From assembly GCF_057098645.1 (NCBI RefSeq), contig NZ_CM169472.1: a DNA stretch of 64,000 nt, one strand, 5' to 3'. The position numbers were made by a program. Shown piece by piece: positions 3,001 through 6,000 of the stretch. Every line of letters begins with the position of its first letter. Position 1 is the first letter of the stretch.

Positions 3001-6000
3001 TTAACTGCCAGTGGCAACACTCACCCTAAATTTACGCGCGGTGATATTTACCGCGACCAGTACGGCGGCACGGTAATGATTAAGGGCGTGGCGGGACGGT
3101 GCGTAACTTACCGCCGTGAAGGTTACGAATATGATTGCGTGATGCCTGTTTATCAGTTCCGGCGTGATTTTTCTCTGGTACAGACCGCGCCGCATAACGT
3201 GCCCACCAGCAACGCCAGGGCACGGGCAAACATCCAGAAGCTGAAAACCATGATTAACGGATTCAGGGGCAAGAAATGAAAAGCGCACCGAACTTAAAAA
3301 AACAGCCTTACGACAAGATGACCGAAGTCATTATTTTTGCGGGTAGTGATGCCTGGGCACATGCGAAACAGTGGCAGGAACAGGACGGGCGACTGGCTGG
3401 CGATAATGTGCCTCCCGTTGTGCTGGCTGATGATCAACTGGATGAACTGGCAGACCTGATAATCATCGACGAGGGGCGCTATTGTGTCCGGCTGTACAAG
3501 GCAGGCCACATCAGGCCATCAAATATTAATGCCATTGCGCACAAGCTGGCGGCGGCGGGTGTAACTGATGCGAATTATTACCCCGAAGGGATGCACAGCC
3601 ATATGCGGGAGAACTGGCGCGAATACCTGGAACGGGTGCGCGGGAAAGAGCCGGCGGAAGAAAAAAACCACCAGCGAAAAACCACGCTACCGATGAGCGT
3701 TGGATCTACCGGATACGACACGCAACTGGATTACGTGGTTAAGGGGATTATTCCGGCGGTATCGCTATGCAGCATATACGGGGCTAGCGGGTCCTATAAA
3801 TCATTCCTTGCCGGATCGTGGGCGTGCCATGTTGCCACTGGTCGCCAGTGGGGAGGCCGCAGGGTTGCACATGGTGCGGTTCTCTATGTGGTTGGTGAAG
3901 GCGGTATAGGTGTTCCGCGTCGTGTAAAAGCCTGGGAGGTTGTGCACGATGAGCAGGTGAAAAATCTGTATCTGGTAAACCGCCCCATCTTTCCGGCTGC
4001 CCCGCTTGATGTTGATGAAATGGTTATCGCTGCCCGTCAGGTGGAGCGGGAAACGGGTAAACCTGTACGCATGATTATTCTGGATACGCTGGCGCGTTGC
4101 TTTGGTGGGAATGATGAAAATGATTCCCGTGATATGGGGGCGTTTATCCGTGGTTGTGACGAACTGAAACGACGCACAGGGGCCACGGTGCTGGTGGTTC
4201 ACCATTCCGGCAAGGATGAGACGAAAGGCGCGCGCGGTTCCAGTGCATTTCGTGCTTCGCTGGATGCTGAATACCGGATACGCAGGGAGGACGCAGGAAG
4301 CGAAGCGCTGGTTATCTCATGCACCAAAATGAAGGACGCGGAGGAACTCAAAGAAGCCGCATATGACTTACGCGTGGTGGAGCTTTTTACCGACGCTGAC
4401 GGTGAATTAATCACGTCGCTGGTGGTGGTGGATGATCCGCGCCCTCCTGTTGAACTGGAGCGCATCGAGGAGGCAGGGAACAAGACGGAAAACCATACCG
4501 CGCTATGGCAGTGCATCAGAACACGAACAGCACACGGGGAGGCGTGCACTATCGCCCTTCTCCGCGACGATATGAAAAAGCTGGGGTATGAGATGAAGCA
4601 CTTCCGGCGCTGGCTGTACAAGCTGGAAAATGATGGCGTAATCGTTATTGACGGTGATGACGTGCGCCCGCTGTAAAAAGTGGGGAGTAAAAGTGGGGAG
4701 AGCGGGGAATTTAACAAAATTGAAACATAATTACCCACTTTCCCACCTGTATATACCCAAAAAAGTGGGGAGTAAAAAATATATTGAAAAACATCACGTT
4801 AGAATCACAAAAAAAAGAGGTGGGGAGACGGTGGGTAATTTCAAAAAGTGGGGAGCAAAAGTGGGGAGTAGTGGGGAATGAACAGAAAAACCAGAGATAA
4901 GACAGCGCCAAAATATAAAGCGTTAGACATGACTGAGCACACCTTAAAGGTGGCAATCAGAACGATAGACCGCCACACGCGGGAAGGATACGCGAAGGAA
5001 CATCCCGACCTGATAAGCGCATTCATGACCACGGCGGCGGCAAACTTTGCCACGCTGACAGAACGGGAGATTGCCGAAGCGGAACAGGTAACAACCATCA
5101 ACGTTAAAACCGGAGAGGTGGAATTATGACGGCACAGATAGCCGCTTACGGGCGGCTGGTGGACGACCCGCAGGTAAAACAGACCAGCAAGGGCACACCG
5201 ATGACGCTGGCGCGTATGGCGGTATCTTTGCCATGCAGCCAGGCACAGGACGGACAGGCGACGTTATGGTTATCGGTCATCGCATTTGGCAAACAGGCCG
5301 ACTTCCTGGCTAAACATCAAAAAGGCGATGTTGCCAGCGTATCCGGCACGATGCAGGTCAGCCAGTGGACCGGACAGAACGGAGAAACGCGGCAGGGCTG
5401 GCAGGTTATCGCAGACAGCGTAATCAGTGCCCGCGCGGCACGTCCAGGCGGGAACAGACGCAAAACCACAGGCACACAGGGTAATCAGCCACCAGCGGGA
5501 GGCGATGACCCTTACGGTGATGATATTTCGTTCTGAGGGGGTGACGATGGTACATGACCGCATAGCGGAGGAACTGGAGGCGAAAGGCTTTTACCGGAGG
5601 GCGGCGGCGCGATGGGGTGAAGTCATGCAGCTGGTGGAGACAGACAAGGAACGGCATCATATCACGATGCGACGGCTGGAATGTTCCAGGAAGGCACAGA
5701 GGCCACCGGAGCCGCCGGATAATTACGGAGACCTGAAAAAGGCGGTCGATCGCACTTATGCCGAAATGGGTATGGATGGTGCTGGTGATGAAATATGGCG
5801 AAATTACCAGGACAGATAATCACACAGCCGGAGCAATCCGGCTTTTTGTCATGTTTTGTAAATTATTTGTTCGTGGTTGTTCCACGTTGTTCACTGAGTG
5901 GATCGGCATATTTTACCCGAACTGAATCATGATTATTCTCGCCCGTGGTGCCAGGACGCTGGGGCCATTTTCCCGCCTGTTAATGTGCTCGCCAATATTC

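What the first reader, a model, noticed from the sequence alone, without database searches (positions are those of the whole stretch)
5867..5896. Helically phased TTGTTC repeats upstream of the capsid operon
TTGTTC occurs three times at exact 10-bp phasing between the perC terminator and the capsid leader. Ten-bp phasing places every copy on one face of the helix, as expected for cooperative binding of a regulator. It is not explained by any coding feature. Related copies occur at two other island sites, suggesting one factor coordinates several modules.
Basis: seen in the sequence. Interest (0 to 1): 0.6.

Follow-up and report, generated by a model that had tools for sequence, protein, structure and literature searches.

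The report
Candidate AlpA boxes upstream of capsid operon
The three TTGTTC repeats are real and form part of a conserved five-unit array, spaced one helical turn apart, just upstream of the promoter-like site of a phage satellite's capsid operon; the same repeat type also flanks the island's integration sites and lies upstream of alpA, so it is most likely the unreported binding site of the island's master switch protein AlpA.

Summary
TTGTTC sits at 5867, 5877 and 5887, where 8e-6 such triples are expected by chance. It is the 3' part of a five-unit TTGT array at 5846-5892.

The window holds a capsid-forming PICI (phage-inducible chromosomal island) inserted in tqsA. Across 80 capsid-anchored relatives, the block TTTTGTAAATTATTTGTTCGTGGTTGTTCcanGTTGTTC stays at a fixed distance from the capsid ATG. 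Its flanks diverge, and capsid protein identity falls to 63%. It always lies 18-20 bp upstream of a positionally conserved sigma-70-like promoter (TTTACA/C-16-TATnnT).

Only two other phased TTGT arrays occur in the 64 kb. One is a 5-unit array between int and alpA. The other is a 3-unit array in the right att arm. A fourth lies in the left arm, outside the window.

In each arm the array abuts a doubled 12-mer. That 12-mer covaries with the integrase clade, while TTGTTC does not.

Best reading: these are boxes for AlpA, a small winged-helix protein acting as both excision factor and activator, as P2 Cox and 186 Apl do. Binding is inferred, not shown. PerC, the replication origin and the integrase are disfavoured. 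This is a new member of a known kind, of moderate interest.

The parts
5846..5892 (+). Five-unit phased array: TTGTCA 5846, TTGTAA 5856, TTGTTC 5867, 5877 and 5887. Candidate AlpA boxes, centred at about -97, -87, -76, -66 and -56 from the predicted transcription start.
   Evidence: Conserved block in 13 diverged lineages.
5826..5843 (+). Terminator-like hairpin with a T-run that ends the perC-like gene.
   Evidence: fold of -12.7 kcal/mol, z = -3.9.
5912..5939 (+). Sigma-70-like promoter of the packaging operon: -35 TTTACC at 5912-5917, 16-bp spacer, -10 TATTCT at 5934-5939. Predicted start near 5946.
   Evidence: the best match falls in the same place in all 13 representative lineages (TTTACA/TTTACC-16-TATGTT/TATCTT/TATTCT). 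This is a consensus match only. The start site has not been mapped.
5945..5968 (+). Hairpin at the 5' end of the leader (CCAG-GACG-CTGG core). The stem covaries and the GACG loop is invariant in 5 of 6 types.
   Evidence: Fold -14.9 kcal/mol, z = -3.9. 96% of cells paired, 6 of 9 pairs changed on both sides.
6108..7265 (+). HK97-type major capsid gene, the first gene of the packaging operon (followed by protease, portal, connectors, HNH, TerS and TerL up to 12448).
5547..5819 (+). PerC-family gene upstream of the array. Not required for conservation of the block.
562..607 (-). Five-unit array (TTGTTC, TTGTTC, TTGTTG, TTGTTG, TTGTAT, exactly 10 bp apart) between the int stop (515) and alpA. It is inverted relative to alpA and lies 272 bp upstream of its start.
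   Evidence: Present in every island with AlpA at 87% identity or more, with the TTGT core kept and the spacers variable.
822..837 (-). Two further units (TTGTGT, TTGTTC, 10 bp apart), 43-58 bp upstream of the alpA start.
   Evidence: A related pair is seen in a variant island. Weak evidence.
880..1068 (+). alpA: a 62-aa Phage_AlpA winged-helix protein, the proposed binder.
   Evidence: Pfam PF05930, E = 6e-17. PHROG 'excisionase and transcriptional regulator'. PDB 8c3t AlpA-family protein.
13331..13356 (+). Three-unit array (TTGTGT, TTGTTC, TTGTTT) in the right att arm, -143 to -118 from the att core.
   Evidence: Part of a 76-nt repeat shared with the left arm.
13374..13395 (+). Doubled 12-mer GGTGTAGTCACT GGTGTAGTCA, a probable integrase arm-type site next to the array.
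   Evidence: Covaries with the integrase clade. Same layout as the published HE-PICI attP motif.
13470..13478 (.). att core ATAACAGCA shared by both island ends; right end of the island inside tqsA.

Best explanation
The TTGTTC repeats are the core of a conserved five-unit operator array immediately upstream of the promoter of the cf-PICI packaging (capsid) operon. The island-encoded AlpA is a 62-aa winged-helix protein of the excisionase (RDF, recombination directionality factor) class. It is proposed to bind head-to-tail, one protomer per helical turn, to arrays of TTGT(T/G)(C/T/G) boxes at four places: both att arms, where it sits next to integrase arm-type sites and directs excision; the int-alpA spacer, where it autoregulates; and positions -56 to -97 of the capsid promoter, where it switches on capsid and terminase synthesis. 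One phage-induced protein would thus couple excision, its own amplification and packaging. What is shown: the arrays, their statistics, their conservation, their positions and the covariation patterns. What is inferred: that AlpA is the binder, that binding activates transcription, and where transcription starts.
For: 1. The arrays are far beyond chance and occur only in island intergenic DNA.
2. Unbiased capsid-anchored sample of 80 loci, 58 unique upstream regions, 13 clusters below 88% identity. The block is conserved at 194-235 nt from the ATG while the flanks drop to 30-50% column identity and capsid identity falls to 63%.
3. A sigma-70-like promoter with a 16-bp spacer lies at the same offset in all 13 lineages.
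4. The int-alpA array is present in all islands with AlpA at 87% identity or more, in at least 6 sequence variants. These keep TTGT at a 10-bp phase while the spacers change.
5. Each att arm carries [TTGTTC array][doubled 12-mer]. The 12-mer changes with the integrase clade: GGTGTAGTCACT, GGTGTAGTTAAT, TGTGTGGTCAGT, GTGCAGTCAGT, GTGGGGTAATC, TGTGTATTGCA. The last is the motif published at -81/+132 in HE-PICIs. The TTGTTC type persists throughout.
6. An AlpA-family gene is present in every island where the region is covered. The helix and wing motifs [SC]R[TS]xRY and GGRSVGW are conserved in the 63-100% identity group.
7. Literature. [quoted passage not shown] AlpA is needed for cf-PICI induction. 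AlpA acts as an excision factor in PICMIs. RDFs bind direct repeats one helical turn apart, need about 3 adjacent sites, and also regulate promoters away from att (Apl; P2 Cox).
Against: There are no binding data. The capsid block is equally conserved in islands whose AlpA is only 58-69% identical and has a different helix and wing (SRSRRW, GKVSVSW). AlpA types at 72% identity or less lack an array upstream of alpA. A factor other than AlpA could therefore serve the capsid site. The int-alpA array is inverted relative to alpA and lies ~270 bp from it. Classical PICIs with the same AlpA show no array near their late genes. The L181-type promoter (TTTACA-16-TATGTT) is decent and might not need an activator.
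Confidence: 0.55

Rival explanations
1. The arrays are functional operators, but the binder is another trans factor. It could be a different island protein, a host regulator that reads tandem direct repeats (an OmpR/PhoB-type response regulator such as ArcA), or a helper-phage Xis-like protein that cross-talks with the island.
For: The capsid block does not vary with AlpA type across 58-100% identity. The most conserved part, TGTAAATTATTTGTTC, resembles the ArcA direct-repeat box; this comparison is from my own memory and was not tested. Excisionase cross-talk between helper phage and PICI has been reported (PMC11773190). alpA induction needs a still unknown helper factor.
Against: Arrays of 3 or more units occur only inside the island, not in the 50 kb of flanking chromosome. 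Their position next to integrase arm sites in both att arms is typical of an element-encoded RDF. The spacing is 10 bp, whereas ArcA repeats are 11 bp apart (from memory). No other DNA-binding protein is common to all islands.
Confidence: 0.2
2. The TTGTTC units are integrase arm-type sites, bound by the N-terminal arm-binding domain of the P4-type integrase.
For: They lie in both att arms and beside int. The int-alpA array co-occurs with integrases of 84-100% identity.
Against: The adjacent doubled 12-mer covaries with the integrase clade. It also matches the position of the published HE-PICI arm motif at -81/+132. TTGTTC stays constant from 41% to 100% integrase identity. HE-PICIs keep the capsid block with a 41% identical integrase.
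Confidence: 0.08
3. No specific protein binds. The phased T-rich units form intrinsically curved DNA or an UP-like element that boosts the capsid promoter.
For: T-tracts are phased at 10-11 bp from -50 to -100, upstream of a weak promoter.
Against: The G and C of TTGTTC are conserved while the spacers vary. The same hexamer recurs at att arms where there is no promoter.
Confidence: 0.07
4. The array is an evolutionary relic of an att arm, left behind when a PICI captured the packaging module. It has no present function.
For: A 33-nt similarity links the capsid array to both att arms. The leader also holds a 16/20 match (window 6018-6037) to the arm segment AACGATCGGTGTAGTCACTG (families D3 and D7).
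Against: The block is about 96% conserved next to flanks of about 50% across islands, at a fixed distance from a conserved promoter. The 6018-6037 match is confined to the window's lineage.
Confidence: 0.05
5. The repeats are replication-origin iterons, terminase (cos/pac) recognition repeats, or PerC sites.
For: In Pasteurellaceae and Gilliamella cf-PICIs, TGTTCACC-type iterons flank an AT-rich stretch upstream of the capsid gene; in Gilliamella they directly follow pri.
Against: This island has its own iterons, AAAAGTGGGGAG x6 at 4674-4868, just after the helicase gene. The block is shared by islands with three different replication proteins. The arrays also occur in classical PICIs that lack the P27-type TerS. 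PerC is absent from many islands that keep the block.
Confidence: 0.03

Closest known systems
Phage P2 Cox and its cox-boxes (PMC3936717)
   Same: A small winged-helix protein binds 6 or more boxes spaced 10-11 bp apart. Box orientation varies between targets. One protein serves att (excision), a repressed promoter and an activated satellite promoter (P4 PLL, boxes upstream of the promoter).
   Different: Cox is not a Phage_AlpA protein and its box is TTAAAG/CNCA. Here the boxes are TTGTTC, and the activated promoter drives the satellite's own capsid operon. Binding has not been shown here.
Coliphage 186 Apl, a dual excision factor and regulator (PMC7498355)
   Same: Direct repeats with 10-11 bp spacing occur at att (5 sites) and at a distant promoter region (7 sites). 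[quoted passage not shown] The arrays here have 3-5 units.
   Different: Apl represses pR/pL. Here activation is proposed. The proteins are not close relatives.
P4 Vis and PICI AlpA (PMC6092414; PMC10803314)
   Same: Same protein family. AlpA autoactivates and triggers excision and replication in EcCICFT073. AlpA acts as an RDF in PICMIs.
   Different: None of the papers I could search gives an AlpA box or describes a packaging-operon promoter.
Doubled attP motif tgTGTATTGCa x2 of helper-embedded PICIs (PMC10111431)
   Same: The doubled 12-mer at 13374-13395 (and at L001 1804-1827) occupies equivalent positions, about -80 and +133 from the att core, and is co-oriented on both arms.
   Different: That motif is not the TTGTTC array. 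It is the neighbouring element, which here covaries with the integrase.
Pseudomonas aeruginosa AlpA antiterminator and its ABE (PMC9371919)
   Same: The name only, plus a terminator-like hairpin downstream of the promoter in this window (6070-6107).
   Different: It is an unrelated, larger protein with a 21Q-like fold. Its ABE is a single GGGACG between -35 and -10. The hairpin here is not conserved in sister islands.

Membership tests
RDF (Xis/Cox/Apl-type) binding-site arrays | Three or more direct repeats spaced one helical turn apart | tested here: met
   Units spaced 10, 11, 10 and 10 bp at 5846-5892; 10 bp x4 at 562-607; 10 bp x2 at 13331-13356.
RDF (Xis/Cox/Apl-type) binding-site arrays | Sites lie in an att arm next to integrase arm-type sites | tested here: met
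   The array at 13331-13356 abuts the doubled 12-mer at 13374-13395, about 100 bp from the core at 13470-13478. The left arm has the same module.
RDF (Xis/Cox/Apl-type) binding-site arrays | The element encodes a small winged-helix RDF | tested here: met
   AlpA matches PF05930 at 6e-17, the PHROG excisionase/regulator family and PDB 8c3t.
RDF (Xis/Cox/Apl-type) binding-site arrays | The protein is shown to bind and bend the repeats (footprint or gel shift) | not testable with these tools
   Needs purified AlpA.
RDF (Xis/Cox/Apl-type) binding-site arrays | Similar sites at promoters away from att (dual-function RDFs) | tested here: met
   By sequence only: arrays occur upstream of alpA and of the capsid promoter.
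Capsid-forming PICI (cf-PICI) | int, alpA and pri/rep, plus capsid, protease, portal, connectors, HNH, TerS and TerL; no tail or lysis genes; about 13-15 kb at a dedicated att site | tested here: met
   The island is inserted in tqsA. O157:H7 islands carry the block at 98% identity.
Activator-dependent sigma-70 promoter | -35/-10 hexamers with a mapped start site and activator sites upstream of -35 | tested here: inconclusive
   The hexamers are conserved in position in 13 lineages, but they fall below the generic scan threshold and no start site has been mapped.
Replication-origin iterons | Adjacent to the rep gene and covarying with it | tested here: not met
   The island's own iterons are at 4674-4868. 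The block is constant across three replication-protein types.
Integrase arm-type sites | Sequence covaries with the integrase clade | tested here: not met
   TTGTTC stays constant from 41% to 100% integrase identity. The neighbouring doubled 12-mer covaries instead.
P. aeruginosa AlpA/ABE antitermination | Homologous AlpA protein; a single ABE between -35 and -10; a conserved downstream terminator | tested here: not met
   The proteins are unrelated and the site layout differs. The hairpin at 6070-6107 is not conserved.

The most novel reading that the evidence does not exclude
The capsid-upstream block may not be read by the island's own AlpA. It could be a lineage-independent socket read by a helper-phage or host protein, for example a helper Xis-type excisionase. 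Packaging-module expression would then sense the helper directly, and the module could be swapped freely among PICI backbones that carry very different int and alpA genes.
Probability: 0.12. Interest if true: 0.7.

Novelty: new member of a known kind. Interest (0 to 1): 0.45.

Why it matters
AlpA is the master switch of Gram-negative phage satellites, yet neither its DNA target nor the control of the cf-PICI capsid operon appears in the literature I could search. A defined box with four placements (both att arms, upstream of alpA, and the capsid promoter) gives a concrete, testable wiring diagram. It would explain how one phage-induced protein couples excision, self-amplification and capsid production. 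It also separates integrase arm sites from excision-factor sites in PICI attP. Finally, it offers a motif for annotating and engineering these islands, which spread virulence and resistance genes across species.

Tried and rejected
- P. aeruginosa AlpA-type antitermination. It was suggested by the shared name and by a hairpin plus T8 before the capsid ATG. The protein is unrelated and the hairpin is not conserved.
- Replication-origin iterons. The island has separate iterons at 4674-4868, and the block is independent of the replication-protein type.
- PerC as binder. PerC is absent from many islands that keep the block.
- TerS or cos site. The arrays also occur in classical PICIs that lack this terminase.
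- Rfam search of 1-14000. Nothing relevant.
- Genome-contig scan with the capsid profile. It gave only 7 loci. The TTCACC arrays of the Pasteurellaceae and Gilliamella islands look like origins and are not the same element. The Xenorhabdus islands keep only a degenerate version.
- Pattern scan of viral contigs. It is biased by design and also returned many unrelated TTGTTC tandem arrays. I used it only to collect variants, not as evidence.
- Literature searches for an AlpA box or TTGTTC motif. None found.

Full report
**Observation**

The sequence reads ...TTTTTGTCATGTTTTGTAAATTA TTTGTTC GTGG TTGTTC CACG TTGTTC ACTG... TTGTTC sits at 5867, 5877 and 5887. The stretch follows the terminator-like hairpin of a PerC-family gene (5826-5843). 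It lies 216 bp before the capsid ATG at 6108.

From the window's own hexamer frequency, 8e-6 exact triples are expected. Two more TTGT units (5846, 5856) extend the array to five units spaced 10, 11, 10 and 10 bp.

Phased TTGT chains of at least 3 units occur three times in the 64 kb on both strands, against 0.11 expected. Two of them have five units, which none of 300 simulations produced. All three lie in intergenic DNA of one mobile element.

**Context**

The first 13.5 kb of the window is a capsid-forming PICI (phage-inducible chromosomal island) inserted in tqsA. Its gene order is:
- int (cut by the window start; stop at 515)
- alpA (880-1068)
- Icd-like and YlcI/YnfO genes
- DUF4222
- a RepA-type helicase (3276-4676), followed by its own iterons AAAAGTGGGGAG x6
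- ssb and perC
- capsid, protease, portal, connectors, HNH, TerS and TerL

These assignments rest. The att core ATAACAGCA is at 13470-13478.

**Conservation of the capsid-upstream array**

Two E. coli islands have a 41% identical integrase, a different primase and a 64% identical capsid. One of them has no perC. They still keep about 50 bp at about 96% identity while both flanks fall to about 50%.

I then took an unbiased sample anchored only on the capsid protein: 80 IMG/VR loci giving 58 unique upstream regions. Nearly all carry the element 194-235 nt from the ATG.

In 13 clusters below 88% identity, the consensus TTTTGTAAATTATTTGTTCGTGGTTGTTC.a.GtTGTTc stands out from flanks with 30-50% column identity. 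TTGTAA and the first TTGTTC are the most conserved units. Units 4 and 5 degenerate in some lineages (TCTTTC, CTGTTC).

In all 13 clusters the best sigma-70-like match lies at the same offset. It is TTTACA or TTTACC, a 16-bp spacer, then TATGTT, TATCTT or TATTCT, 18-20 bp downstream of the last unit. In the window this gives -35 at 5912-5917, -10 at 5934-5939 and a start near 5946. The units are then centred at about -56 to -97. That is where upstream-bound activators act; this last point is general knowledge.

**The other arrays**

- A five-unit array at 562-607 (minus strand) lies between int and alpA. It is present in every island whose AlpA is at least 87% identical. At least six sequence variants keep TTGT at a 10-bp phase while the spacers change. 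It is absent from AlpA types at 72% identity or less.
- A three-unit array at 13331-13356 lies in the right att arm.
- A near-identical island that includes the left end (L001) shows a four-unit array between the att core and int. The two arms share a 76-nt module: [TTGT array][GGTGTAGTCACT x2].

Across integrase clades the doubled 12-mer changes:
- GGTGTAGTTAAT at 84-90% integrase identity
- TGTGTGGTCAGT at 67%
- GTGCAGTCAGT at 56%
- GTGGGGTAATC in Xenorhabdus
- TGTGTATTGCA at 41%

The neighbouring TTGTTC-type units persist throughout. The 41% form is exactly the doubled motif published for helper-embedded PICIs at -81 and +132 from the attP centre. The 12-mers here sit at about -100 to -79 and +133 to +156. 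The 12-mers are therefore the likely integrase arm sites. The TTGTTC arrays belong to a more conserved partner.

**Who binds**

An AlpA-family gene (PF05930) is present in every island where the region is covered. Three published findings bear on it:
- AlpA activates its own promoter. When overexpressed it triggers int-dependent excision and replication of EcCICFT073.
- An alpA mutation abolishes cf-PICI induction.
- AlpA behaves as an excision factor in PICMIs.

Excision factors as a class bind head-to-tail to direct repeats one helical turn apart and need about three adjacent sites. In P2 Cox, 186 Apl and P4 they also control promoters far from att, through similar repeats.

The anatomy here fits that pattern at all four sites, so I assign the boxes to AlpA with moderate confidence.

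Three points weigh against this assignment:
- The capsid block is equally conserved where AlpA is only 58-69% identical and has altered helix and wing residues.
- Those AlpA types lack the alpA-upstream array.
- Nothing shows binding.

**Alternatives excluded or weakened**

- PerC is missing from many islands that keep the block.
- Origin iterons are elsewhere, and the block ignores the replication-protein type.
- The integrase is better matched to the covarying 12-mer.
- The P. aeruginosa 'AlpA' antiterminator is an unrelated protein.
- The hairpin plus T8 in front of the capsid ATG is lineage-specific.
- TGTTCACC arrays upstream of the capsid gene in Pasteurellaceae and Gilliamella cf-PICIs are clustered around an AT-rich stretch; in Gilliamella they directly follow pri. 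They look like origins.

**Novelty**

The mechanism class is well known: a dual-function excision factor with phased boxes. None of the papers I could search reports an AlpA box, a TTGTTC motif or a promoter for the cf-PICI packaging operon.

I rate this a new member of a known kind. It is useful and directly testable, but it would not surprise a specialist.

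Noticed in passing
window 5945-5968: A hairpin sits at the predicted 5' end of the capsid-operon leader (GUGGUGCCAG GACG CUGGGGCCAU; -14.9 kcal/mol, z = -3.9). Across island lineages the stem changes by compensatory substitutions (CTCA/TGAG, CTCC/GGAG, CCAG/CTGG), and the GACG loop is unchanged in 5 of the 6 types (GGCG in L188). 96% of cells are paired and 6 of 9 pairs changed on both sides, but only 6 distinct sequences were compared. Its function is unknown. It could be an mRNA-stabilising 5' stem-loop or a protein target. Some sister islands encode a ProQ/FinO-family protein just upstream.
   Followed up: partly
window 6070-6107: A terminator-like hairpin (GTCCTGG...CCAGGAC, -14.1 kcal/mol) followed by T8 ends directly at the capsid ATG. 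Its 3' arm holds the only Shine-Dalgarno-like AGGA. It is not conserved in the L002/L003 island types.
   Followed up: partly
window 13374-13395; L001 1804-1827: A doubled 12-mer, GGTGTAGTCACT x2, occurs on both att arms. It covaries with the integrase clade across six clades and matches the position of the published HE-PICI attP motif. It is a probable integrase arm-type site.
   Followed up: yes
window 6018-6037: AACGATCGGTGCGATTACTG in the capsid leader matches the left-arm segment AACGATCGGTGTAGTCACTG at 16 of 20 positions. It hints that this lineage's leader once recombined with an att arm. The match is not seen in other lineages.
   Followed up: partly
window 4674-4868: Six copies of AAAAGTGGGGAG, plus an inverted repeat, lie directly after the RepA-type helicase gene. 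They are probably the island's replication origin. L001, with a different primase, has TCTACC iterons instead.
   Followed up: partly
window 822-837 (minus strand): Two more phased units (TTGTGT, TTGTTC) lie 43-58 bp upstream of the alpA start. They may be a proximal operator.
   Followed up: no
L014-L133 (IMG/VR contigs): Phased TTGTTC(C) arrays, often three direct units followed by an inverted GGAACA, occur in many unrelated viral contigs. Several sit right beside a gene start. The search was conditioned on the motif, so nothing can be said about frequency. They may be operators of other small winged-helix proteins.
   Followed up: no
L005 9700-9793; L006 1307-1408; L007 9248-9362; L008 9213-9433: cf-PICIs of Pasteurella, Haemophilus and Gilliamella carry clustered (T/C)(G/C/A)TTCACC iterons around an AT-rich stretch upstream of the capsid gene; in Gilliamella they directly follow pri. 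The architecture looks like a replication origin.
   Followed up: partly
window 1126-2295: The 389-aa ORF on the + strand looks spurious. RefSeq annotates this stretch in L001 as an Icd-like pseudogene, with a YlcI/YnfO gene on the opposite strand (window 1686-1883).
   Followed up: no
L002, L003, L013: Sister cf-PICIs are inserted inside a prophage terminase large-subunit gene (the helper-embedded configuration). They carry two AlpA-family genes: a 73-aa one overlapping the int stop and a 92-aa one.
   Followed up: partly
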